A stretch of DNA of 64,000 nucleotides from positions 1 to 64,000 of IMG/VR virus record IMGVR_UViG_3300035698_012707; one strand, written 5' to 3'. How positions within the stretch are numbered: position 1 is the stretch's first letter; the number at the start of each line of letters is the position of its first letter. The notes under the pieces were generated by a model. The model was not told the DNA's origin. It made no database searches and was given only the letters and a program-made list of their open reading frames with translations. This document shows, piece by piece, positions 10,160 to 38,953 of the stretch. The stretch comes from a virus. The position numbers and the translations under genes were made by a program.

Positions 10160-10429
10160 ATGAGCAATGGGTGGGACAACCAAGACAATAGAGGAGAAAG
10201 AATGTTCATATTAAGTGAGAATAATAAAAATAACATAATTATATGTATTGCTGGAGTTATTGCGGTTGCGTTTGTGTGTGCATGCTTTTATGGTACGACA
10301 TTACAAATTCAAGAAACAAATAGAAAATTTATTGCAGAAGGATACGAATATAAGCCAATAATAGAAAAAGAAATAGACACCGAAATAGACACTACTATGT
10401 CATGGGTTAAGACAGCTGGAGAAAAATAA
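10160..10429 (+). CDS. Single-TM protein, N-terminal tag WDNQDN
   Basis: MSNGWDNQDNRGERMFILSE; paralogue of next gene. Confidence 0.7.
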   Translation: MSNGWDNQDNRGERMFILSENNKNNIIICIAGVIAVAFVCACFYGTTLQIQETNRKFIAEGYEYKPIIEKEIDTEIDTTMSWVKTAGEK

Positions 10430-15164: not shown

Positions 15165-15259
15165 AATATTAAATAAAATAGCTGATGTTCTTCTTACAAA
15201 AGTTGTGAAAGAAGATTATGAATTGACTATAACAGTAAAAGCAAAAAAAGGAGCAAGAA

Positions 15260-15628
15260 ATGAAAACAGTTAAGGTAGCAAGAGTAGGCAGTAAAGTGCA
15301 AGAAGTAGCAGTACGAATAGAAGCAACAATAGAAGAATGTTTAGAAGCAGCTAATATACAGCTGGGGGCTAATGAAGATGTGTATGAAAACCATGTAAAG
15401 CGTTGCATTGGAACAAACGCTCTCATTGGGTCAACTTTAGTTGTTGAACCGCAGAAAATAGTTCCTTTATCAAGTAAAGTAATGGGAATAATAGACATAC
15501 TATCAGAAGAAGAATGTATAGATGCTGATGATTATTATGACGATTACGATAATACAGATTATAATTGGATATACAGTGAATATGGAAAAATGATAAATGA
15601 TATAATTAAAGTAGCTAGGGAGGGTTAG
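15260..15628 (+). CDS. Ubiquitin-like (beta-grasp) domain protein without diglycine, acidic C-terminal extension
   Basis: MKTVKVARVGSKVQEVAV..ATIEECLEAA aligns with the Ubl repeats at 17596. Confidence 0.75.
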   Translation: MKTVKVARVGSKVQEVAVRIEATIEECLEAANIQLGANEDVYENHVKRCIGTNALIGSTLVVEPQKIVPLSSKVMGIIDILSEEECIDADDYYDDYDNTDYNWIYSEYGKMINDIIKVAREG

Positions 15629-15629
15629 C

Positions 15630-16310
15630 ATGGACTTTGATGACCGAGACGGAGTAGTCGAGGAAAGATATTCTAGACATTGGGATATGTTAGATGTTGA
15701 AAGACTTCATACATTGCCGATTAGAATAGTTGGAGCTGGAAGCGTAGGCAGTTTTACTTGCTTAAGCTTAAGCAAAATGGGTGCTAAGAACATAAAAATA
15801 TATGATGATGATATGGTTGATGAACACAACATTTCAAATCAGTTTTATAGAACTCAAGACGTTGGTGAGTTTAAGGTTGATGCACTACAAAGTATGATAA
15901 TGGATTTTGAAGGCGTTCCTATTCAAATAGAGAACGAACGATGGTATGGTAATGATGATTGTAACGGTGTAATAATAGCAGCCGTTGATAATATGGATGC
16001 CAGGAAGAGGATATGGGAGAAAGTCAAAGGAAACAATGATGTATCTCTTTTTATTGACCCTCGGATGGGAGGAAAAACCGCAAGAATATATTATGTAAAT
16101 CCTCTTTCTGGTTCTAAAAAATACGAAGAAACATTATATGACGATGATGAAGCAGCGCAAGAAAGATGTACGGAAAGAACTATAATATATAACGTATTAG
16201 GAATAGCAAGCTTTATATCAAAAGGTATAGCAGATTGGATGGCGGATGGAGTAGAAGATTGCAAGGAATTAATATTAGACTATGCAACTTTTACTCTTAT
16301 GGTTAGATAA
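15630..16310 (+). CDS. ThiF/MoeB/E1-family activating enzyme
   Basis: IVGAGSVGS, DDDMVDEHNISNQFY, KVDAL and AAVDNMDAR motifs; candidate catalytic Cys in ERCTER. Confidence 0.9.
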   Translation: MDFDDRDGVVEERYSRHWDMLDVERLHTLPIRIVGAGSVGSFTCLSLSKMGAKNIKIYDDDMVDEHNISNQFYRTQDVGEFKVDALQSMIMDFEGVPIQIENERWYGNDDCNGVIIAAVDNMDARKRIWEKVKGNNDVSLFIDPRMGGKTARIYYVNPLSGSKKYEETLYDDDEAAQERCTERTIIYNVLGIASFISKGIADWMADGVEDCKELILDYATFTLMVR

Positions 16311-16328
16311 AATAATCGTAATAACTAG

Positions 16329-16357
16329 TTGAAAAATGTAGTATTTTGTGGTATTAT
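16329..16357 (+). promoter_or_regulatory. Sigma70-type promoter
   Basis: TTGAAA-17 bp-TATTAT with extended -10 TG. Confidence 0.65.
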
Positions 16358-16378
16358 AGGTATATAGGGAGGTGAAGA

Positions 16379-16540
16379 ATGAAGAAAAAAACTAAAGCAA
16401 TAAGAATAGCAGAGAATAGTTATGACTATCTAGTTGCAGTATCTCTCAAAGATAGAAGAGGTATGGGAGTTACCCTAGACCTAATTTTAGAGGAGCATAA
16501 AAATGCCACAAAAAAGCGAAAAAGAAAGAAAAAAGTATAA
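16379..16540 (+). CDS. Small basic protein, possible ribbon-helix-helix DNA binder (53 aa, below track cutoff)
   Basis: GGGAGGTG SD; MKKKTKAIRIAENSYDYL...GMGVTLDLILEEH. Confidence 0.55.
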   Translation: MKKKTKAIRIAENSYDYLVAVSLKDRRGMGVTLDLILEEHKNATKKRKRKKKV

Positions 16541-16970
16541 TATGCTAAGACAACGAAAACATCGTAAGTCTAATAAAGAAAAGAACTTACAATATCGAAG
16601 AGAATATTATGAAAACAATAAAGATCACATATTATTGCTAAAAAAAATATGGAGAATTAATAACAAAGAAAAAGAAAGAGAATACAAAGTTTGGTATAGA
16701 ATAAATCATCCATGGAGTGTTACTTTAGAAAACGTAAAAGCAAGGGTTAGCGGTAGGAATACAAGACATGATTACACTAGTATAAAAAATACGCTAACAT
16801 TAAAACAATTAGAATATCTATGGAAAAGAGACAAAGCTGACCATATGCTTAAATCAGCATTACATAGAAAAAACAATAATGGAGATTACACAGTGAGAAA
16901 TTGTGAGTATGTTGAGAGCGGATGGCACTCTTCATACCACAATAAACAAAGAAAAAAGGACATTAAATGA
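16503..16970 (+). CDS. HNH homing endonuclease-like protein
   Basis: Basic helical N-terminus; LHRKNNNGDYTVRNCEYVESGWH. Confidence 0.7.
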   Translation: MPQKSEKERKKYNMLRQRKHRKSNKEKNLQYRREYYENNKDHILLLKKIWRINNKEKEREYKVWYRINHPWSVTLENVKARVSGRNTRHDYTSIKNTLTLKQLEYLWKRDKADHMLKSALHRKNNNGDYTVRNCEYVESGWHSSYHNKQRKKDIK

Positions 16971-17094
16971 CAGCAGGGAAAAATAATCCAAATTATGATG
17001 AATGGAAAATAAAACATCCTTCATTATGGCTTAAGGGAGCAAAAGAACTATTTTATAAAATTGTGTCAAAAATAAACAATAAAGGCAAATTAAA

Positions 17095-17448
17095 ATGAAT
17101 AAGAAAATAATAATATTTGTATTAATGATACTATTTTTTACGCAAAATTTTAGTCATGCTGGCGGTAATCCATTCACTAAATATTATATGACTAATGGAT
17201 ATTCAAATGGTAGATATCTTATTGATTTTACTAATACATCAGCAGATACTGCAGATGTTTGTGGAACAATACATTATACTCGTGGTATAATAGATACTTT
17301 TTTTAGATATAATCCAGAAATATATAACAAACACTATAAGAATATGTCGTCAAATGAGATAAGTATTATGGTACAAAGATTCTATAAAAATAATCCAGAT
17401 AAAAGATATTTACCAATAGTAGATGTTGTTTTTGACGGATGTAAATAG
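17095..17448 (+). CDS. Secreted protein with signal peptide
   Basis: MNKKIIIFVLMILFFTQNFSHA signal-like N-terminus; very AT-rich. Confidence 0.65.
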   Translation: MNKKIIIFVLMILFFTQNFSHAGGNPFTKYYMTNGYSNGRYLIDFTNTSADTADVCGTIHYTRGIIDTFFRYNPEIYNKHYKNMSSNEISIMVQRFYKNNPDKRYLPIVDVVFDGCK

Positions 17449-17454
17449 AACAAT

Positions 17455-17568
17455 TTAGGTATAAGTTCTTTTATTTGCAAAATAATAGAAGATTATATGA
17501 AAAATGGTGTAGAAAGTAATCGAGAGCTGGTTCTTGATTACGCAACATACACCTTGTTAACAAGGTAA
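17455..17568 (+). pseudogene. Displaced original 3' end of the E1 gene
   Basis: LGISSFICKIIEDYMKNGVESNRELVLDYATYTLLTR* versus E1 LGIASFISKGIADWMADGVEDCKELILDYATFTLMVR* (23/37 identical, no gaps). Confidence 0.85.
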
Positions 17569-17595
17569 GACCCAAAAAACAAAAGGAGGTAGACA

Positions 17596-18009
17596 ATGAT
17601 TACAGTCAAAGTCGCTCGTTTGGGAAACACAGTGCAGGAAGTTGCACTCAATGAAGGTTCATCCGTTCAGGATGCTCTAACAGCTGCTGATCTCGCAGTA
17701 GACGGTGAGGATATTCGTATCAACTCATCAAACTCTAACCTTACAGATGTAGTACGTAATGGAGACATTATTACTCTTGTACCAAAGGTAAAGGGTGGAC
17801 AAAAGCTCGTTAAGGTCGCAAGACTAGGTTCAACAGTGGAAGAAGTTGCTGTTCCTAACGACGCTACAATTGAGTATGCTCTTGAAGCAGCCGATGTTGT
17901 AGTAGACAACGAAGACATCCGTTTGGATGGCCGCTCTGCAAGTTTATCAGATAGTATTGGCAACGCGTCAATGATCACTATCGTTCCAAAGGTAAAAGGT
18001 GGTAAGTAA
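17596..18009 (+). CDS. Tandem di-ubiquitin-like precursor (2 x 68 aa, each ending VPKVKGG, final extra Lys)
   Basis: Internal repeat visible directly; strong AGGAGGT SD. Confidence 0.9.
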   Translation: MITVKVARLGNTVQEVALNEGSSVQDALTAADLAVDGEDIRINSSNSNLTDVVRNGDIITLVPKVKGGQKLVKVARLGSTVEEVAVPNDATIEYALEAADVVVDNEDIRLDGRSASLSDSIGNASMITIVPKVKGGK

Positions 18010-18032
18010 TATCCCCCCACAGTAAAAAATCC

Positions 18033-18068
18033 GAGGGCGGTATGTGCAATGCATATCGTCCTCATTTT
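18033..18068 (+). terminator. Stem-loop after Ubl gene (terminator or mRNA stabiliser)
   Basis: GAGGGCGGTATGT/GCATATCGTCCTC stem followed by ATTTT. Confidence 0.55.
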
Positions 18069-18135
18069 AAAGGAGTGTGATGCAAACAAAAATACATGTT
18101 GTATTAATGTTTTCAATATTTTAAAAGGAGGAGTA

Positions 18136-19290
18136 ATGAGCGAAAAGAAAAAGTATCAAATAAAATACAGTGGAGATGGTACACCGTCAACAAAGGTGAA
18201 ATCATCATATGATAAGTTGTTGCAAGAGCTTGCTAATGACTTTGAAATAGACATAGAAGTTGTTACATGTCATGGAAAATATGACTATATACCCGCAGAA
18301 TTAGACTTTGAAAAGTTCTACATATTTGCACAGTTAGTACCAGACGTTATAGCTTATAAGGGTAAAAAGTTGTCTAAACTTATGTTGGGCGATAAGGAAG
18401 TAACTGTAACTGGTGGTCAAACAGATAGCATGAAAATAGTCGGAGCTATGCCAAAAGATGCTACAGTTATAAATGATTCAAAAGGTGAAGCCTTAGCAAT
18501 TGTATACGACGCATCCTTGTACATATTAAATGATTTTATTCATTGTCATTCAAAGGATGAATTAGACAATAGTTTAGAAATATTTAAGTATATCGTTAAC
18601 GAAGCAACTAAAACACCAGAACTATTGAAAGCACTTAAGTATGGCACGGAAGAAAAAGGACGTAAGTCTTTAGAAATAGCGTTAAAGAAACAATACAAAG
18701 AAAGACTTAAGAAAGAAAAAGTATTACTTGATAGTTCAGAGAAACTTATAGATAATTATACTCAGGAACTTACAAAAGCAAGTAGAAAAATAATATCTAC
18801 ACAAAATATTATTAAAGCAATTCACAGCAATCTAGAAGATATTCCAGAATCTCTTGAAAAGAAATGGAATTCTGCAAAAAAGCTAGAGAGTACACCAATA
18901 TTTGAATCTGTTAGTTTCCAGAGAAATTCTGTAAAAGCTGTTACGACTGAAATATTTGTAACAGAAAAGAAAGTAACATATCAAATGGGAAAATTTGAGA
19001 TTGTCCTAGAATTCAATGGTAATATAAGAATAATGTCAATGTGGCCACAAAGAGGACCTTCGCAACAGCATCCTCACGTAAGTGCTGAAGGTCGTCCATG
19101 CTGGGGAAACCTCAGTGGAGAGTTACCAAAAAGGATAGCAGAAAGTGAATTTGACGTTGCATTTGTAGAGATACATACATTTCTATGTCATTATTCACAA
19201 GAAGGCGGTCCATATGCTAATATTAATCACTGGCCACAAGCAACAGCAAAACAAATAGCTATGCTTAAAGCTGACAAAGTTAGAACGTAA
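18136..19290 (+). CDS. E2/UBC-like conjugating enzyme with N-terminal domain and coiled coil
   Basis: HPHVSAEGRPC has the same spacing as the E2 motif HPNxxxxGxxC; AGGAGG SD before ATG 18136. Confidence 0.7.
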   Translation: MSEKKKYQIKYSGDGTPSTKVKSSYDKLLQELANDFEIDIEVVTCHGKYDYIPAELDFEKFYIFAQLVPDVIAYKGKKLSKLMLGDKEVTVTGGQTDSMKIVGAMPKDATVINDSKGEALAIVYDASLYILNDFIHCHSKDELDNSLEIFKYIVNEATKTPELLKALKYGTEEKGRKSLEIALKKQYKERLKKEKVLLDSSEKLIDNYTQELTKASRKIISTQNIIKAIHSNLEDIPESLEKKWNSAKKLESTPIFESVSFQRNSVKAVTTEIFVTEKKVTYQMGKFEIVLEFNGNIRIMSMWPQRGPSQQHPHVSAEGRPCWGNLSGELPKRIAESEFDVAFVEIHTFLCHYSQEGGPYANINHWPQATAKQIAMLKADKVRT

Positions 19291-19300
19291 GGGGGAAGTA

Positions 19301-20281
19301 ATGGGAGAAATAACTACAAAAACAAAGTTCCAAGCTCTATATATTGACCCAGAATGTAAGAAAAAATTACAATACTGGGCAGATGCAGCCGTTGGAGAAG
19401 TTAGTGGTCTTGGTCTTGTAGACAATGAAGACGGAAGAATGGTGGTAAGAGAGGTCTACATCTTAGAACAGGAATGTTCAGGAGCAGACACAGAGCTTGA
19501 TCCAGAGGCTATATCTAAGCTTATGATGGAAATTTTGCAAGCTGATAAAGATCCAGCCAAGTTAAAGTTCTGGTGGCATAGTCATGTTAATATGGGTTGT
19601 TTTTGGAGTGGAACTGATGATGAATGTGCTGAAACGTTAAGCAAAGAATTTGCATTCAGTACCGTAGTCAACAAGAAAGGCGAATCTAAAACAAGGCTTG
19701 ATTTATATGAGCCGTTTAGAATAACTGTAGACAATATTCGTCTTATCGAGATAACTGCAGAAGATGAAAATCTTAAAAAACAATGCGAACAAGACGTAAA
19801 AGAAAAAGTAAAAACAAAATCATGGACAAGAAATTATAATCAACATAATAATGGAAAAGGATACTATGATCAGAAAAAGTGGGATAACTTTGGAAGGTGT
19901 GGAAGCCCATATGAGGATCCATATGATTATGCTGAAACATCCAAAGTAAAGTTAAAAGACGACATAGTTGAAGACATTAAACTTCTTAGTGATCTTATAT
20001 TTGATAACGGATTTTCAGCCATTGCGTTGAATAGCTTTATTTATGATATAACAAATCAGGCCATAGAGAAGATATATGGTGATAAAGCAGAATGTAAGGA
20101 TGGAATAGGAACATATTCCGAAAATGAAAAACTTTGTAAAAAATGCAAGATATCAAAACAGTGTGAATTGTTGACAGATAAACTAAAGGAGCCATTGGAT
20201 GAAAATGATACTTGTAGCGAACATAATAAGGAAGACATTTCCGAAGATAGTGTTGAAGTTATCGTCGATCCTGATAATTGA
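19301..20281 (+). CDS. JAB/JAMM (MPN+) metalloprotease
   Basis: GEVSGLG plus HSH-x7-S-x2-D (WWHSHVNMGCFWSGTD). Confidence 0.9.
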   Translation: MGEITTKTKFQALYIDPECKKKLQYWADAAVGEVSGLGLVDNEDGRMVVREVYILEQECSGADTELDPEAISKLMMEILQADKDPAKLKFWWHSHVNMGCFWSGTDDECAETLSKEFAFSTVVNKKGESKTRLDLYEPFRITVDNIRLIEITAEDENLKKQCEQDVKEKVKTKSWTRNYNQHNNGKGYYDQKKWDNFGRCGSPYEDPYDYAETSKVKLKDDIVEDIKLLSDLIFDNGFSAIALNSFIYDITNQAIEKIYGDKAECKDGIGTYSENEKLCKKCKISKQCELLTDKLKEPLDENDTCSEHNKEDISEDSVEVIVDPDN

Positions 20282-20622
20282 GGGTCTTTTTTTAGCAATA
20301 GATAAATATTTATTTCAACGGTTACGTAAGGAGCCAGAAATGACAAAGAAAACAGAAAAAAATGAAAACGTATATTGTCAAATATGTTACTTGCAAAGTG
20401 ACAATAGTCCAGATGTAAAGTTTCATTTATATGAAGAGGGTACATTTTCATATCCAACCGAAATGCATATATGTCAAAAATGCTTAGACTGGGTAAATTT
20501 TATGAGAAAAATGGCATCTGAACAAGCAAAGTTTCCAGAAAAGGATTCATTTGAGAATTCTAATTGGTGGTGGCAACCTAAAAAAGAGGGTCATTCTGCA
20601 GCCGAAATGTGTGTAAAATAGG

Positions 20623-22099: not shown

Positions 22100-23019
22100 A
22101 TGAGACTTGAATCAAAAACAAAAATAGGCGATGGAACGGTAGATAGAATAATCTATGATGATATTTATGGTGCTAGTGAATTTTTTGAGCCTAAGATATG
22201 GATAGACACTTGGTCTAAAGATAAATTTTGGCTAAAAACAGCAGCAGGAGAAAAAATATCAGTTTCTAAGTTAGAATTAAAGCAATTGAACTTTAAAATA
22301 ATAACTAGAAACGTAGGAACGCGGTCTAATAGGCTCTACAAGCATTTTATGACAGTAAATAGTCCAAGAAAAGCTTCAGAGAGAATACCACTACTTAGTA
22401 TCGCAAGAAAACTTAATAAAGTATGGAAAAGGAGTATTAATGTCGAAGAACAATACAGACGAAGGTATCAATATGGATTCAGATTCTGGAATCCCGAAAA
22501 GTGAGAACTTAACAACAGATCAAAAGTTAGAGAATTTAGCTAGGAATTTATTTATATTACTTAAGAAGCAAGATGATATTAGCTTGGCTTTAGACAATGT
22601 ATATATACAAGTAGCAACTCTGATAGAAATTCTCGCAGAACATGAAAACATACTTAACCCTGATTTATGGGAAAAGAAGTTAAAAGAAGTAACAAAAAAT
22701 ATAAAAGACACCATGGAGGCAATGGAGAATGAAGCAGCAAATGCTGGACAAGATAATGTCACAAATCCCGACGGGGCAGATGCGTCACAGGGAAGTGGAA
22801 AAATTATTACTCAAGATCATACAATCATTATACCAGGTCAGTAAAGAAGAAGGATATGCTTGGAGTGGTAATTTAATTGATGTCGGAGGAAGAATTGGTC
22901 TTTTAACCGAAACAGGGGAAATTGTAGAACTTGACTCTGTACTTCCAAAAGGAGAAACCGGAAGGTTTATGCTGATATGGACACAAGATGATAGTGAAAA
23001 ACTTAAAAGAGAAGTATAA
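22100..23019 (+). CDS. Three hypothetical ORFs (22100-22504, 22440-22844, third ending 23019)
   Basis: ORF track. Confidence 0.55.
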
Positions 23020-23590
23020 TACATGCAATACGTGTGATAAATGTATAAATGATTGCAAAGTATTTGGTTATGGAAATACAAACGCAGATTTAATGATAAT
23101 AGGAGAGAGCCCCGGAAAAGATGAAGCAGAAGCTGGTGTTCCATTTATTGGTCAGGCAGGTCAGCTGCTTGATAAAATATTAGCAGCAATAAACATAAAA
23201 CGTGAAGATGTTTATTTTTCGAATACCATTCTATGTAGAACAAACGAAAAGGATCGAACCCCATCTTGGGATGAGATACAAAATTGTGCTGAAAGGTTGG
23301 ACGAGGAGATAAATATCGTAAAACCTAACGTTATACTAATGGTCGGCAGCCAAAGCTTAAAGCGCTTTTTTGGCAAAGATTCCAAGGTGACTGAATGTCA
23401 TGGGCGATGGTTTCTTGACTTCAAGCCTCCTTACGCACGATACTTTTCGATAATGCATCCTTCTTGGGCTCTCCATAGTTCTACCCCTGGAGAGTTAAAG
23501 GCAAAGAAAAGAACTCTATGGGAAGATATTAAGCGTTTTTCTAACGATTTAGAAGTAGTTAACTTTGAACTAAGGAGAGAAAATGTATAG
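22988..23590 (+). CDS. Uracil-DNA glycosylase, family 4
   Basis: CxxCxxC, IGESPG.DE..G.PFIGQAGQLL, N.ILCR and MHPS motifs. Confidence 0.9.
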   Translation: MIVKNLKEKYNTCNTCDKCINDCKVFGYGNTNADLMIIGESPGKDEAEAGVPFIGQAGQLLDKILAAINIKREDVYFSNTILCRTNEKDRTPSWDEIQNCAERLDEEINIVKPNVILMVGSQSLKRFFGKDSKVTECHGRWFLDFKPPYARYFSIMHPSWALHSSTPGELKAKKRTLWEDIKRFSNDLEVVNFELRRENV

Positions 23591-37570: not shown

Positions 37571-37646
37571 TGCGGGATGGAGCAGTGGTCAGCTCGAGTG
37601 TCTCATAAGCACTAGGTCGTGGATTCGAATTCCGCTCCCGCAACCA
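37571..37646 (+). tRNA. tRNA-Met(CAT)
   Basis: Cloverleaf; loop CTCATAA; T-loop TTCGAAT; CCA end. Confidence 0.9.
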
Positions 37647-37716
37647 TATAATAATAACTATTTATACTCTTAACCTAGTGACTATTTGAAAGTAAAAATT
37701 TCGCAGAGAGTTATTA

Positions 37717-37803
37717 GCGGGTGTGGTGAAATTGGCAAACACGCTAGATTTAGAATCTAGTGTCAGAGATGACATGGGAGTTCAAGTCTCTCCACCCGCA
37801 CCA
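37717..37803 (+). tRNA. tRNA-Leu(TAG)
   Basis: CTAGA-TTTAGAA-TCTAG; long variable arm; CCA. Confidence 0.92.
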
Positions 37804-37817
37804 AGTTTAAATTATAT

Positions 37818-37895
37818 GGTGGTTGTAGCTTAATTAGATAAAGCACTTGACTGTGAATCAGGAAGATGGCAGTGCAACTCTGCTCGATCACCCCA
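37818..37895 (+). tRNA. tRNA-His(GTG)
   Basis: G-1; CTTGA-CTGTGAA-TCAGG; C discriminator and CCA; atypical T-loop TGCAACT. Confidence 0.85.
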
Positions 37896-38226
37896 AAAAT
37901 TATAAGTAAGAAGAATTAAACGGAGGAATAAGATGAAATATGTTTATCTTGTAGAACTTGAAAAAGAAGACGAAGAAAGATTTAAAAAACTTATTCAAAA
38001 AGATTTTAAAAATTCTATAGTAAAATTAAAAAGCTTTGGAGATATTGAATCAGTGGAAAACCAAGAAGAATATGACGCTTGGATGGCAGCTGGATAACAA
38101 AAGGAGGAATACAATGGGATTAATAGTATTAGCAGCTAATTTCTGGTATTTGTATGGTGTTGCTTGCGGCCAGGTAGTAGGCGCAGCAGCCATTCAAAAA
38201 ATGATCTTAGGTGCATAGAGTGTGAT

Positions 38227-38318
38227 GGGGTGCGGCATGCTAACATGTCCATGATACAGCGGGTGTGATAACATACCCGTGCTGTAGCAGGTGTAGGAAT
38301 TAACCTACCGCCCCTCCA
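38227..38318 (+). ncRNA. tRNA-like RNA with elongated central hairpin
   Basis: GGGGTG/CGCCCC acceptor then TCCA; GTAGG/CCTAC T-like arm; no anticodon loop. Confidence 0.5.
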
Positions 38319-38327
38319 ATTTTTTAT

Positions 38328-38357
38328 GGAGACGTGGTGTAATTGGTAACACAGCAT
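38328..38357 (+). pseudogene. 5' fragment of a tRNA
   Basis: GGAGACG-TG-GTGT-AATTGGTA-ACAC D-arm, then truncated. Confidence 0.55.
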
Positions 38358-38364
38358 ATTTTAG

Positions 38365-38441
38365 AGAGGAGTAGTTCAGTTGGTCAGAACATCAGGTTTT
38401 GATCCTGTCGGTCGCTGGTTCGAATCCGGCCTCCTCTTCCA
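38365..38441 (+). tRNA. tRNA-Gln(TTG)
   Basis: AGAGGAG/CTCCTCT acceptor; loop TTTTGAT; GGTTCGAATCC; CCA. Confidence 0.85.
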
Positions 38442-38442
38442 T

Positions 38443-38517
38443 CAGGGAGTAACTCAGTCTGGTCAGAGTCCTCGCTTTGGAAGCGAGTTGTCAGAAGTTC
38501 AAATCTTCTCTTCCTGA
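38443..38517 (+). tRNA. tRNA-Pro(TGG), CCA not encoded
   Basis: CTCGC-TTTGGAA-GCGAG; CAGGGAG/CTTCCTG acceptor. Confidence 0.88.
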
Positions 38518-38530
38518 CTCTTTTAAATTA

Positions 38531-38720
38531 TAACGAGTGGCGAAAAGAGACGCATGTCAAGCATGAGACTGTGGTTAGCAAATGCAATCAACTTAAGATG
38601 ATTACCGCTCCACATATGTAGGGTGACTATACGAGTAGAATCAACCATTTCAACGGTCTACGAAACTGTTGTAAAATTGTTGGCTAACAACCAATGTCTC
38701 GTCAAAGCCTACCTCGTTAC
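38531..38720 (+). ncRNA. ~190-nt tRNA-framed RNA with large insertions
   Basis: TAACGAG/CTCGTTA acceptor; TGGCGAAAAGAGACGC D-arm; GTAGG/CCTAC T-stem enclosing about 85 nt. Confidence 0.55.
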
Positions 38721-38727
38721 ATAATAT

Positions 38728-38803
38728 TGCCTTGTAGCTCAGTTGGCAGAGCAGTGGCTCGATAAGCCATTGGTCAATGGTTCGAACCCATTCGAGGCAA
38801 CCA
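38728..38803 (+). tRNA. tRNA-Ile(GAT)
   Basis: GTGGC-TCGATAA-GCCAT (C at position 33); CCA. Confidence 0.85.
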
Positions 38804-38877
38804 GTCCAAGTAACCGAATGGCTAGGTAGTGGATTGCAAACCCATTTATGCTGGTTCGAATCCAGTCTTGGACTCCA
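38804..38877 (+). tRNA. tRNA-Cys(GCA)
   Basis: GTCCAAG/CTTGGAC acceptor; loop TTGCAAA; U73; CCA. Confidence 0.88.
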
Positions 38878-38879
38878 GT

Positions 38880-38953
38880 GGGGGTATGGTGTAGTGGTAA
38901 CATGAGTGGCTCCAGACCACTTGACATGGGTCCGATTCCTATTGCCCCTGCCA
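38880..38953 (+). tRNA. tRNA-Trp(CCA)
   Basis: AGTGG-CTCCAGA-CCACT; G73; CCA. Confidence 0.85.

What the first reader, a model, noticed from the sequence alone, without database searches (positions are those of the whole stretch)
17596..18009. Polyubiquitin-style precursor: two 68-aa Ubl units head-to-tail, capped by one extra residue
SEEN: 137 aa = 68 + 68 + 1. Both units end VPKVKGG (first GG ends at 17799) and the protein ends GG-K. It has a strong SD and a downstream hairpin, suggesting higher expression than E2/JAB. ESTABLISHED: eukaryotic polyubiquitin genes have this layout and need a protease to release monomers and remove the cap. INFERENCE: the JAB protease matures two non-identical modifiers from one gene; the lysines in VKVAR and PKVKGG could support chains.
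Basis: partly seen in the sequence, partly recalled or inferred. Interest (0 to 1): 0.7.

Follow-up and report, generated by a model that had tools for sequence, protein, structure and literature searches.

The report
Phage tandem ubiquitin-like modifier precursor
An uncultured phage carries its own ubiquitin-style tagging kit, and the tag gene encodes two tag units joined head to tail, each with a complete Gly-Gly end, so it looks like a small polyubiquitin that a neighbouring protease probably cuts apart.

Summary
ORF 17596..18009 (+) encodes 137 aa = 68 + 68 + 1. The two units are 54% identical, both end VPKVKGG, and the protein ends GG-K.

The gene lies in a viral record, in the order E1 (ThiF), di-Ubl, E2-like fusion, Rpn11-like JAB. 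That order recurs in related metagenome loci.

- Among 118 complete homologs the internal tail, the Gln after it and the one-residue cap are almost invariant.
- Both units evolve at the same rate and conserve mirrored positions.
- A single-unit profile finds relatives with 1, 2, 3 or 4 units. In 62 of 75 multi-unit proteins every unit keeps its tail.
- A complex model places unit 1 on the JAB with the G68|Q69 junction over the catalytic residues (score 0.74, best control 0.09).

I read it as a capped Ubl precursor. The JAB removes K137 (likely) and also cuts between the units (about 55%). The main rival is an ISG15/BilA-like two-domain modifier used intact (about 30%).

Cleavage, conjugation and targets are not shown. 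I rate it a new variant of a known kind.

The parts
15260..15628 (+). UblX: a 122-aa protein with an N-terminal beta-grasp-like unit (starts MKTVKVARVG). It has no Gly-Gly tail and carries an acidic C-terminal extension. It lies directly upstream of the E1.
   Evidence: The di-Ubl query matches it in the window's own record (E 6e-8). Nine orthologs align, none has a GG tail. It is found upstream of the E1 in 11 loci and is absent from 6 more distant loci that have at least 2 kb upstream. No Pfam hit.
15630..16310 (+). E1-like adenylating enzyme (ThiF family), 226 aa, with a conserved Cys180.
   Evidence: Pfam ThiF 63.3 bits against a cut-off of 28.1. PDB sequence matches to PaaA, UBA5 and UBA1 over residues ~20-100. 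G35/G37/G40 and C180 are invariant in 11 of 11 aligned orthologs. It lies upstream of the Ubl gene in 27 of 34 loci.
17584..17589 (+). Shine-Dalgarno AGGAGG, 6 nt before the ATG of the di-Ubl gene.
   Evidence: Read directly from the sequence.
17596..18009 (+). Di-Ubl gene: 137 aa = unit 1 + unit 2 + Lys cap, stop included.
   Evidence: 145 homologs with E <= 0.01, of which the best 120 are listed.
17596..17799 (+). Unit 1 (aa 1-68), a beta-grasp ending VPKVKGG.
   Evidence: The internal tail is VPKVKGG in 117 of 118 complete homologs and VPKIKGG in 1. It is docked on the JAB in the complex model.
17800..18003 (+). Unit 2 (aa 69-136), a beta-grasp that starts with an invariant Gln and ends VPKVKGG.
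   Evidence: Gln follows the internal GG in 118 of 118 homologs. The terminal tail is VPKVKGG in 117 and LPKVKGG in 1.
18004..18006 (+). Cap codon (Lys137) after the last Gly-Gly.
   Evidence: The cap is K in 116, E in 1 and N in 1 of 118 homologs. In 23 locus ORFs it is K in 22 and N in 1.
18033..18063 (+). Hairpin with a 13-bp stem and 5-nt loop, followed by AUUUUAAA, in the spacer before the E2-like gene.
   Evidence: Fold of 18005-18140: -33.2 kcal/mol, z -3.1. A hairpin of different sequence occupies the same position in 14 of 15 related loci. The terminator scan did not call it.
18136..19290 (+). E2-like fusion protein, 384 aa: an N-terminal alpha/beta domain (~1-160), a long helix (~170-234) and a C-terminal UBC-like domain carrying HPH-x7-C (H312, P313, H314, C322).
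   Evidence: H312, P313, H314, C322, W323, G324 and N325 are invariant in 19 of 19 orthologs. AF2 mean pLDDT 84.2. In VIA-align, residues 235-369 match E2 enzymes (Pex4p 2y9m_A Z 7.5, rmsd 3.0, 112 aligned; UbcH10 5a31_Q Z 7.5; Ubc13 4ip3_B Z 7.3), which is a middling Z. Foldseek gives nothing at E <= 0.001. No Pfam family above its cut-off. It lies directly downstream of the Ubl gene in 26 of 34 loci; the other 8 end inside the Ubl gene or within 160 nt after it.
19301..20281 (+). JAB/JAMM metalloprotease, 326 aa: catalytic domain ~1-171 and a Cys-rich C-terminal half.
   Evidence: PDB sequence matches to PSMD14/Rpn11 (E 1.3e-5) and to the Caldiarchaeum Rpn11-like protein 6fjv_A (E 9.4e-4). 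Pfam Prok-JAB is below its cut-off (16.3 against 25). H93, S94, H95, S103 and D106 are invariant; E33 is present in all 6 rows that cover it. It lies downstream of the E2-like gene in 17 loci.

Best explanation
The ORF is the modifier gene of a phage-borne ubiquitin-like conjugation cassette: E1, di-Ubl, E2-like protein, JAB. It is translated as a capped head-to-tail pair of ThiS/SAMP-like beta-grasp units.

Proposed steps, all inferred and none observed:
1. The Rpn11-like JAB removes Lys137 to expose Gly136.
2. The JAB most likely also cuts the G68|Q69 peptide bond. This releases two different 68-aa modifiers, each with a free ...PKVKGG end.
3. The ThiF-type E1 adenylates the C-terminal glycine, possibly passing it to Cys180.
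4. The modifier moves to Cys322 of the UBC-like domain and from there to lysines of host or phage proteins that are not yet known.
5. The same JAB can reverse the marks.
6. The conserved hairpin after the Ubl gene would let the modifier be made in excess over the enzymes.

My odds: about 0.85 that it is the conjugated modifier of this cassette and the cap is removed, and about 0.55 that the internal junction is also cut.
For: 1. Context.
- The window is a virus record.
- The E1 is a ThiF-family protein.
- The JAB has an intact JAMM motif and resembles Rpn11.
- The E2-like protein has an invariant HPH-x7-C and a UBC-like C-terminal fold.
- The gene order recurs in related loci: E1 upstream in 27 of 34, the E2-like gene downstream in 26 of 34, the JAB after it in 17.

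2. Tail conservation.
- In 118 complete homologs, down to about 58% identity, the internal tail is VPKVKGG in 117 and VPKIKGG in 1.
- It is followed by Gln in 118 of 118, with no linker.
- The cap is one residue: K 116, E 1, N 1.

3. Both units look equally functional.
- Mean pairwise identity is 0.711 for unit 1 and 0.711 for unit 2 across 95 orthologs.
- Units 1 and 2 have 33 and 34 positions conserved at 90% or more. Of these, 27 coincide and 23 carry the same residue.

4. The family shows a unit-number series.
- Among the best 150 of 1217 profile hits, 75 have 1 unit, 49 have 2, 20 have 3 and 6 have 4.
- 62 of 75 multi-unit proteins keep a G[GNA] tail on every unit.
- 21 of 75 contain a pair of units that is at least 70% identical.

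5. Complex model of JAB 1-172 + Zn + di-Ubl.
- The tool's verdict is that the model supports binding but does not show it.
- Score 0.74, best of 3 controls 0.09. That mark was reached by 58 of 80 solved complexes and 2 of 110 mismatched pairs.
- The three runs agree in at least 95% of contacts, and the partner's pLDDT is at least 88.
- The contacts are di-Ubl residues 5, 7-13, 39-46, 58-71 and 84-88 against JAB residues 33, 35-37, 93, 95 and 101-109. So unit 1 is bound and the G68-Q69 junction lies over the catalytic residues.

6. The di-Ubl model has high pLDDT (89.6) but pTM 0.60, as expected if the two domains are not fixed to each other.

7. Precedents, read as passages or sections.
- BilC cuts BilA one residue before its end.
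- The JAB of BubCD cuts the Ubl-E2 fusion BubAB after G229.
- CsRpn11 cuts the CsUb precursor after GG, and also CsUb-GFP.
Against: - No experiment or read-level data show cleavage, activation or conjugation.
- In this lineage the copy number is fixed. All of the best 120 hits have two units or are fragments, although proteins up to 240 aa were searched.
- There is no concerted evolution: unit 1 to unit 2 identity is 0.528 within a protein and 0.532 between proteins. A plain dosage-type polyubiquitin would not look like this, and a stable two-domain modifier would.
- Type I Bil uses a double Ubl as one modifier.
- Part of the tail (..LVPKV) is the last beta strand, so some of its conservation is structural.
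- JAMM-Ubl complexes are solved, so the complex score may come from memory. The calibration of that tool also held no riding ligand and did not use my own alignments.
- 13 of 75 multi-unit relatives have units without a tail, so both architectures exist in the family.
- The E2 assignment rests on a motif and a middling structural Z of 7.5. Foldseek gave no match at E <= 0.001.
Confidence: 0.55

Rival explanations
1. An ISG15/BilA-like two-domain modifier. Only the Lys cap is removed, the 136-aa di-Ubl is activated at Gly136 and conjugated whole, and the internal Gly-Gly is never cut.
For: - Type I Bil systems use a Ubl of two fused beta-grasp domains as one modifier, and Bil/Bub Ubls have 1-3 beta-grasp domains.
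- In this lineage there are always exactly two units.
- The duplication is old and there is no concerted evolution.
- Each unit has its own conserved residues.
- ISG15 and FAT10 are among the structural matches.
Against: - The internal seven-residue tail, the Gln after it and the absence of any linker are invariant over 118 homologs. An N-terminal domain that is never activated has no evident need for this.
- Both units conserve the same positions at the same rate.
- Relatives range from 1 to 4 units with a tail on each.
- The complex model puts the internal junction, not the C-terminus, in the JAB site.
- I could not check whether the internal domains of BilA or Ubl3 keep a glycine tail. The tables that may show it are supplements, which were closed.
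Confidence: 0.3
2. A sulfur-carrier pair of ThiS/MoaD/TtuB type. The E1 adenylates the GG end, a thiocarboxylate is formed and sulfur is passed to a small molecule or nucleic-acid base. The JAB only uncaps the carrier.
For: - The only Pfam family at threshold is ThiS (22.8 against 22.5 bits).
- Sources name homologs 'sulfur carrier protein ThiS' or 'molybdopterin converting factor small subunit'.
- The closest solved sequences are SAMP2 and PF1061.
- The E1 is a minimal ThiF-type enzyme.
- ThiS/MoaD-type gene clusters with a JAB are described in prokaryotes.
Against: - A conserved E2-like protein with an invariant Cys lies in the cassette.
- No rhodanese, cysteine desulfurase or sulfur-acceptor enzyme was seen among the neighbours scanned.
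- The JAB resembles Rpn11.
- As far as I recall, tandem units with a tail on each are not a feature of sulfur carriers; I did not test this.
Confidence: 0.07
3. Not a conjugated modifier at all. It would be a decoy or inhibitor, for example a linear di-Ubl mimic that occupies host Ubl enzymes or receptors, or an assembly chaperone like the Ubl of lambdoid tail assembly protein I.
For: - Host Bil systems attack phage tails by Ubl conjugation, so a counter-measure is conceivable.
- Phage Ubl-plus-JAB pairs without an E1 or E2 exist in tail assembly modules.
- A third Ubl paralog without a GG tail (UblX) is encoded nearby.
Against: - The gene is always flanked by its own E1, E2-like protein and JAB.
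- The activating tail and the cap are conserved.
- The cassette lies among replication and repair genes (SSB, endonuclease VII, a 200-aa ORF I labelled UDG, a RecA/UvsX-like recombinase), not among tail genes. The SSB and UDG labels are my own reading of the translations and were not confirmed by a family scan.
Confidence: 0.05

Closest known systems
Eukaryotic polyubiquitin precursors (UBB/UBC/UBI4 type)
   Same: - Units are joined head to tail without a spacer.
- Every unit ends in the Gly-Gly tail that is activated.
- There are extra residue(s) after the last GG.
- A protease is needed to free the monomers.
- Linear di-ubiquitin and a polyubiquitin are the top structural matches.
- The wider family has 1-4 units.
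   Different: - The units are ThiS/SAMP-like, not ubiquitin (Pfam ThiS only; 9-13% identity to the di-ubiquitin and polyubiquitin chains among the matches listed).
- The two units are only 54% identical and are kept distinct, with no concerted evolution and a fixed copy number in this lineage.
- The presumed processing enzyme is a JAMM metalloprotease. In eukaryotes the job is done by cysteine DUBs (recalled).
- The gene is carried by a phage.
Bacterial Bil (BilABCD) anti-phage systems, Type I and II
   Same: - The four parts are the same: Ubl, E1, E2 and a JAB DUB.
- The JAB pre-processes a capped Ubl, with a one-residue cap in E. aridi.
- Type I uses a Ubl with two beta-grasp domains.
   Different: - The Bil double Ubl is treated as one modifier.
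- No PADLOC model matched the di-Ubl or the E2-like protein here, and the JAB matched only a Cas10 model at E 0.074.
- The E1 here is a minimal 226-aa ThiF with no separate Cys domain evident.
- The E2 is fused to an N-terminal domain and a long helix.
- The system is phage-borne, not a host defence island.
Bub operons and the 'polyUbl' of Iyer et al. 2006 (Ubl2/Ubl3 proteins)
   Same: [quoted passage not shown]
- The JAB domain of BubCD cuts a Ubl out of a larger pre-protein after a conserved glycine.
   Different: - Ubl3 proteins act as folded three-domain units that dimerise and form Ca2+-dependent filaments (abstract).
- Bub enzymes work through oxyesters, and the E1 is fused to the JAB or to the E2.
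- The passages I read do not say that every repeat keeps an activatable tail.
Archaeal SAMP/JAMM and Caldiarchaeum Ub/Rpn11 systems
   Same: - The closest solved sequences for the Ubl are SAMP2 (5lda_B) and PF1061.
- For the JAB they are Rpn11 and CsRpn11-like proteins.
- CsRpn11 matures a capped Ub precursor precisely after Gly-Gly and also cuts linear fusions.
   Different: - Those modifiers are single units.
- SAMP systems have no E2 (recalled).
- The E-values here are weak (1.8e-3 for the Ubl, 1.3e-5 for the JAB).
ISG15 and FAT10
   Same: Two beta-grasp domains in one chain, with a C-terminal Gly-Gly used for conjugation. Both are among the structural matches.
   Different: As I recall, their N-terminal domains have lost the Gly-Gly tail and are joined to the second domain by a hinge; I did not test this. 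Here the first unit keeps the complete tail and abuts the second unit directly.

Membership tests
Polyubiquitin-type precursor (architecture) | Units joined head to tail with no spacer | tested here: met
   G68 is followed directly by Q69, which aligns with M1 of unit 1. The model shows strand 58-63, coil 64-68 and strand 69-76.
Polyubiquitin-type precursor (architecture) | Every unit ends in the tail that is activated (Gly-Gly) | tested here: met
   VPKVKGG ends both units. The internal tail is kept in 118 of 118 complete homologs.
Polyubiquitin-type precursor (architecture) | Extra residue(s) after the last Gly-Gly | tested here: met
   K137 in the window. The cap is K 116, E 1, N 1 of 118.
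Polyubiquitin-type precursor (architecture) | Near-identical units kept alike, with variable copy number | tested here: not met
   In this lineage the units are 54% identical, unit-to-unit identity within a protein equals that between proteins (0.528 against 0.532), and there are always two units. In the wider family the feature is present: 1-4 units, and 21 of 75 multi-unit proteins with a unit pair at least 70% identical.
Polyubiquitin-type precursor (architecture) | Monomers are released by a protease | not testable with these tools
   Only a complex model is available. It places the G68-Q69 junction over the JAB catalytic residues (score 0.74, best control 0.09).
ThiS family (Pfam PF02597) | Score above Pfam's gathering cut-off | tested here: met
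   22.8 bits against a cut-off of 22.5, over residues 14-68. This is borderline.
Bil (BilABCD) system | Operon with a Ubl, an E1, an E2 and a JAB DUB | tested here: met
   All four kinds of gene are present and syntenic.
Bil (BilABCD) system | Sequence membership of the proteins in known defence-system models | tested here: inconclusive
   In PADLOC-DB v2 the di-Ubl and the E2-like protein matched no model at E <= 0.1. The JAB matched only a Cas10 model (E 0.074). The E1 matched only CBASS-type 'E1-E2' models over its nucleotide-binding part. I did not verify which Bil models that library holds.
Bil (BilABCD) system | Host-encoded anti-phage defence | tested here: not met
   The cassette lies in a virus record among phage replication genes. 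Function was not tested.
JAMM/MPN+ metalloprotease | Catalytic motif: Glu ... H-x-H-x7-S-x2-D | tested here: met
   E33, H93, H95, S103 and D106 are present and conserved. PDB sequence matches to Rpn11/PSMD14, E 1.3e-5. The consensus form of the motif is recalled.
E2 / UBC fold | HPN-like triad followed by the catalytic Cys eight residues after its third residue | tested here: met
   H312-P313-H314 ... C322, invariant in 19 of 19 orthologs. The spacing in canonical E2s is recalled, not tested.
E2 / UBC fold | UBC fold | tested here: inconclusive
   VIA-align Z 7.3-7.5 over 110-124 residues against many E2s, which is a middling Z. Foldseek gave no match at E <= 0.001, and the best E2 rows were E 0.026-0.1.
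E1 / ThiF adenylating enzyme | ThiF domain above the cut-off, with a Gly-rich nucleotide loop | tested here: met
   63.3 bits against 28.1. G35, G37 and G40 are invariant.
ISG15-like two-domain modifier | Two beta-grasp domains in one chain, of which only the last carries the conjugated tail | tested here: not met
   Two beta-grasps are present, but the first also keeps the full tail.

The most novel reading that the evidence does not exclude
A lineage of uncultured phages has its own ubiquitin-like tagging system built on the polyubiquitin principle. One gene gives two different modifiers, released and uncapped by an Rpn11-like JAB. A phage E1 and an E2 fusion then attach them to host or phage proteins during infection. 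The wider family, with 1-4 units each keeping its own tail, would show that polyprotein-encoded modifiers arose outside eukaryotes and are widespread in viruses of prokaryotes.
Probability: 0.45. Interest if true: 0.8.

Novelty: new variant of a known kind. Interest (0 to 1): 0.65.

Why it matters
Prokaryotic Ubl-E1-E2-JAB cassettes are so far known as host defences against phages (Bil, Bub, CBASS Cap2/3). Here the full set is carried by the phage, so Ubl tagging may also be an offensive or takeover tool.

The modifier gene would be the first prokaryote-virus case I could find in which every tandem unit keeps an activatable tail. That is the defining logic of polyubiquitin genes. It would make the origin of polyprotein-encoded modifiers, and JAMM-type precursor processing, directly testable with four small proteins.

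There is also a practical point. The tail ...K-G-G means that trypsin would leave a Gly-Gly remnant on modified lysines (inferred from the sequence). Standard di-Gly proteomics could therefore find the targets.

Tried and rejected
- **GenBank phage collection.** No match for the 5.1-kb cassette by megablast, for the di-Ubl by tblastn, or for two other family members, P0138 and P0124. The tool warns that near relatives of the window may be left out.
- **Viral-contig scans.** Scans with the di-Ubl, alignment A1, P0122 and P0138 gave pattern matches but no confirmed relative.
- **Genome contigs.** The single-unit alignment found no relative.
- **Protein Atlas.** The N-terminal domain of the E2-like protein gave no usable hit.
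- **Sequencing runs.** No RNA holder was listed, only DNA runs. I did not lay reads, so nothing can be said about expression.
- **Terminator scan.** It did not call the hairpin after the Ubl gene.
- **Foldseek on the E2-like model.** Nothing at E <= 0.001.
- **Literature.** Five full-text searches. Among the listed titles and abstract openings I saw no description of a phage-encoded Ubl-E1-E2-JAB cassette, nor of a prokaryotic or viral poly-Ubl in which each unit keeps its tail. The nearest is an Asgard-virus preprint reporting viral E1-like genes only. This is a limited search, not proof of absence.
- **Supplements.** They were closed. Table S1 of PMC11601603 (Ubl architectures) and Table S6 of bioRxiv 10.1101/2023.09.04.556158 may show whether the internal domains of BilA or Ubl3 keep a glycine.
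- **Idea rejected.** That the SD shows higher expression than the E2, because the E2-like gene has an equally good SD.
Full report
**1. The observation**

ORF 17596..18009 (+) encodes 137 aa.
- Residues 1-68 and 69-136 align without gaps: 35 of 65 identical, E 5e-24.
- Both units end VPKVKGG. The first Gly-Gly is coded by 17794-17799, and the protein ends GG-K before TAA.
- AlphaFold2, run with a 35-row alignment, gives two beta-grasp domains. Strand 58-63 of unit 1, the coil KVKGG and strand 69-76 of unit 2 follow each other directly. Mean pLDDT is 89.6 and pTM is 0.60.
- Foldseek against the PDB gives 96 matches at E <= 0.001. They are led by linear di-ubiquitin complexes (8t48_A, E 9e-8) and a polyubiquitin (5vix), then FAT10 and ISG15.
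- In the viral structure library the best match is an uncharacterised 311-aa protein of an uncultured Caudovirales phage (E 2.9e-8, 24% identity).

**2. Surroundings**

The window is the first 64 kb of an 81,342-base virus record that CheckV rates 58% complete. It carries:
- an ORF I read as an SSB (my own label from the translation; it was not scanned against any family library);
- endonuclease VII (Pfam);
- a 200-aa ORF at 22988-23590 that I labelled UDG (also my own label, not scanned);
- a RecA/UvsX-like recombinase and HNH endonucleases;
- eight tRNA genes.

The recombinase is at most about 30% identical to anything in the GenBank phage collection.

Around the Ubl gene lie four further genes.
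- **UblX (15260-15628).** A 122-aa protein whose N-terminus is a third copy of the unit, without a Gly-Gly tail.
- **E1 (15630-16310).** A ThiF-family protein, 63.3 bits, with an invariant Cys180.
- **E2-like protein (18136-19290).** A 384-aa protein. Its C-terminal domain carries the invariant motif HPH-x7-C-W-G-N in 19 of 19 orthologs. Residues 235-369 align structurally with many E2 enzymes at Z 7.3-7.5, which is a middling value.
- **JAB (19301-20281).** Its JAMM motif is intact (E33, H93-S-H95, S103, D106). Its best solved relatives are Rpn11/PSMD14 (E 1.3e-5) and the Caldiarchaeum Rpn11-like protein.

PADLOC matched no model to the di-Ubl or the E2-like protein, and only a Cas10 model at E 0.074 to the JAB.

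**3. Relatives of the cassette**

One metagenome scan gave 236 pattern matches and 34 confirmed loci. Mapping the window's proteins onto them showed:
- **E1 upstream in 27 of 34.** Six of the other seven start inside the Ubl gene or within 181 nt before it. The seventh, L036, holds a single-unit relative with 951 nt upstream and no E1 match.
- **E2-like gene directly downstream in 26 of 34.** The other eight end inside the Ubl gene or within 160 nt after it.
- **JAB after the E2-like gene in 17.**
- **UblX in 11 closer loci.** It is absent from six more distant loci that have enough upstream sequence.
- **The 1.3-kb stretch between E1 and Ubl in the window (16311-17595) is variable.** In most loci the E1 abuts the Ubl gene.

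**4. Conservation of the two-unit layout**

The word-indexed search found 145 proteins at E <= 0.01 among 213 candidates of 75-240 aa. The best 120 were listed.
- Of these 120, 118 parse as complete two-unit proteins. One of the other two is cut at its C-terminus and the other has an aberrant N-terminus.
- In the 118 the internal tail is VPKVKGG (117) or VPKIKGG (1), and the next residue is Gln in all 118.
- The terminal tail is VPKVKGG (117) or LPKVKGG (1). The cap is K (116), E (1) or N (1).
- The 23 ORFs read from loci agree: cap K in 22 and N in 1.
- No three-unit form appeared, although its length was within the range searched.

For the 95 proteins in which both units have the standard length:
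- mean pairwise identity among orthologs is 0.711 for unit 1 and 0.711 for unit 2;
- unit 1 to unit 2 identity is 0.528 within a protein and 0.532 between proteins;
- units 1 and 2 have 33 and 34 positions conserved at 90% or more. Of these, 27 coincide and 23 carry the same residue.

So the duplication is old and there is no concerted evolution. Both units are under equal constraint on the same positions.

**5. The wider family**

I searched a 68-position profile of single units (alignment A3, 16 rows) against 1.84 billion representatives. It gave 1217 proteins at E <= 0.001, 218 at <= 1e-10 and 9 at <= 1e-30, and the best 150 were listed. I re-scanned these 150 locally.
- 75 have one unit, 49 have two, 20 have three and 6 have four.
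- In 62 of the 75 multi-unit proteins every unit ends in G followed by G, N or A: 17 are all-GG, 39 all-GN, 4 all-GA and 2 mixed. The other 13 have at least one unit without such a tail.
- In 21 of 75 the most similar pair of units is at least 70% identical, and in 5 it is at least 90%.
- Of the 75 single-unit proteins, 66 have the tail, and 61 of those are GG. Their caps are 0 (10), 1 (29), 2 (17) or 3 (6) residues, or longer (4).
- One four-unit member is on record as a hypothetical protein of a 'bacterium' MAG, on a 300,646-base contig.

I obtained no gene context for any of these other subfamilies.

**6. Does the JAB see the internal junction?**

I ran one complex job: JAB residues 1-172 (7-row alignment), Zn and the di-Ubl (35-row alignment).
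- The tool's verdict is that the model supports binding but does not show it.
- The score was 0.74 and the best of 3 controls 0.09. That mark was reached by 58 of 80 solved complexes and 2 of 110 mismatched pairs.
- The three runs agree in at least 95% of their contacts, and the partner's pLDDT is at least 88.
- The tool says the counts hold only roughly here, because my own alignments and a riding ligand were used.
- The listed contacts are di-Ubl residues 5, 7-13, 39, 41, 43-44, 46, 58, 60, 62-71, 84-85 and 87-88, against JAB residues 33, 35-37, 62-76, 84-99 and 101-118.

So unit 1 is the bound Ubl. Its tail and the G68-Q69-K70-L71 junction run over the catalytic Glu, the two His and the Ser/Asp, and unit 2 touches the far side. 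This fits an endoproteolytic cut between the units.

Solved JAMM-Ubl complexes exist, for example 5lda, which is among the sequence matches. The pose may therefore be remembered, and it is not evidence of catalysis.

**7. Expression signals**

The SD AGGAGG (17584-17589) is good, but so is that of the E2-like gene. The JAB gene has GGGGGA.

The spacer after the Ubl gene folds into a 13-bp hairpin at 18033-18063 (z -3.1). Strong hairpins of unrelated sequence occupy the same position in 14 of 15 related loci. This argues for a conserved RNA element, either an attenuator-terminator or a 3' stabiliser, that could raise the Ubl-to-enzyme ratio. The consensus terminator scan did not call it.

**8. 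Mechanism proposed**

Shown by sequence and comparison: a capped, two-unit, tail-bearing Ubl gene embedded in a conserved E1 / E2-like / JAB cassette of a phage lineage.

Inferred: removal of the cap by the JAB (odds about 0.85 together with conjugation), and a cut at G68|Q69 giving two distinct modifiers (about 0.55). E1 adenylation and transfer through C180 and C322 to lysines are also inferred.

Unknown: the targets and the benefit to the phage. The position among replication and repair genes suggests action during early or middle infection, but that is a guess.

**9. Comparison with what is known**

- Bil systems have the same four parts. Their JAB trims a one-residue cap, and Type I uses a double Ubl as one modifier.
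- The JAB of Bub excises a Ubl from a Ubl-E2 fusion. Bub 'polyUbl' proteins with two to three repeats were already called reminiscent of polyubiquitin in 2006, but they act as folded multi-domain units that form filaments.
- CsRpn11 matures a capped archaeal ubiquitin.

Three things differ here:
- the cassette is phage-borne;
- every unit keeps the whole activatable tail with no linker, within a family that runs from one to four units;
- the E2 is part of a larger fusion protein.

I file it as a new variant of a known kind.

**10. Limits**

- There is no biochemical or read-level evidence.
- The E2 assignment is moderate.
- The unit counts rest on the best 150 of 1217 hits.
- The other subfamilies have no gene context.
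- Papers were read as passages or single sections, and their supplements could not be seen.

Noticed in passing
window, + strand throughout (e.g. 3501, 3751, 3986, 4227, 4471, 4815, 5033, 5301, 9645, 11803, 13601, 13975, 15141, 26195, 33240, 35564, 41451, 45889, 48922; N-terminal cases at 10172, 10444, 12714, 46582): The peptide pattern W-D-x-[EDQR]-x-N occurs 26 times, always in + strand frames; 20 base shuffles gave a mean of 0.75 and a maximum of 3. Of the 26, 20 lie 0-2 residues before a stop codon, so they are the C-termini of many different small ORFs. Several others lie within the first dozen residues of ORFs. The same pattern occurs 24 times, all on the coding strand, in 134,635 bases of related loci, 12 of them within 2 residues of a stop. 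It could be a terminal peptide tag shared by many small early proteins, or a by-product of a purine-rich junction element in the DNA. This is unresolved, and any link to the Ubl system is speculation.
   Followed up: partly
window 15260-15628 (+): UblX is a third copy of the Ubl unit (starts MKTVKVARVG). A Glu-Pro-x-Lys stretch stands in place of the Gly-Gly tail, and an acidic helical extension of about 55 residues follows. It ends 2 nt before the E1 start. It is present in 11 closer loci and absent from 6 distant ones. It might be a non-conjugatable regulator or E1 partner.
   Followed up: partly
window 18136-18630 (+), residues ~1-165 of the E2-like protein: This conserved N-terminal alpha/beta domain has invariant C45-H46, D133, F134 and H136. 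It gave only weak Foldseek matches to class-I glutamine amidotransferase-like folds (2a9v_C, E 8.6e-3) and no Atlas hit. It may be a second catalytic or substrate-binding module fused to the E2 through a helix of about 65 residues.
   Followed up: partly
family members P0123, P0126, P0127, P0134, P0138 and others (no window coordinates): Most multi-unit relatives (39 of the 62 that keep a tail on every unit) end each unit in K-G-N rather than K-G-G. Single-unit relatives are mostly GG (61 of 75). The chemistry at a C-terminal Asn, or a cut after the single Gly, may differ from the GG type. I recall, without testing, that some E1-like enzymes such as MccB act on a C-terminal Asn.
   Followed up: no
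window 16311-17595 (+): [quoted passage not shown] Only the 155-aa ORF has matches elsewhere, in L011 and L017. In most related loci the E1 abuts the Ubl gene.
   Followed up: partly
window 37571-38953 (+): A cluster of eight tRNA genes: Met, Leu, His, Gln, Pro, Ile, Cys and Trp.
   Followed up: no
window 15200-20300: Three public DNA runs labelled salt lake metagenome hold at least half of the sampled words of the cassette, and two more hold about a quarter. No RNA run was listed and none was laid. The best holder may be the source of the window itself.
   Followed up: no
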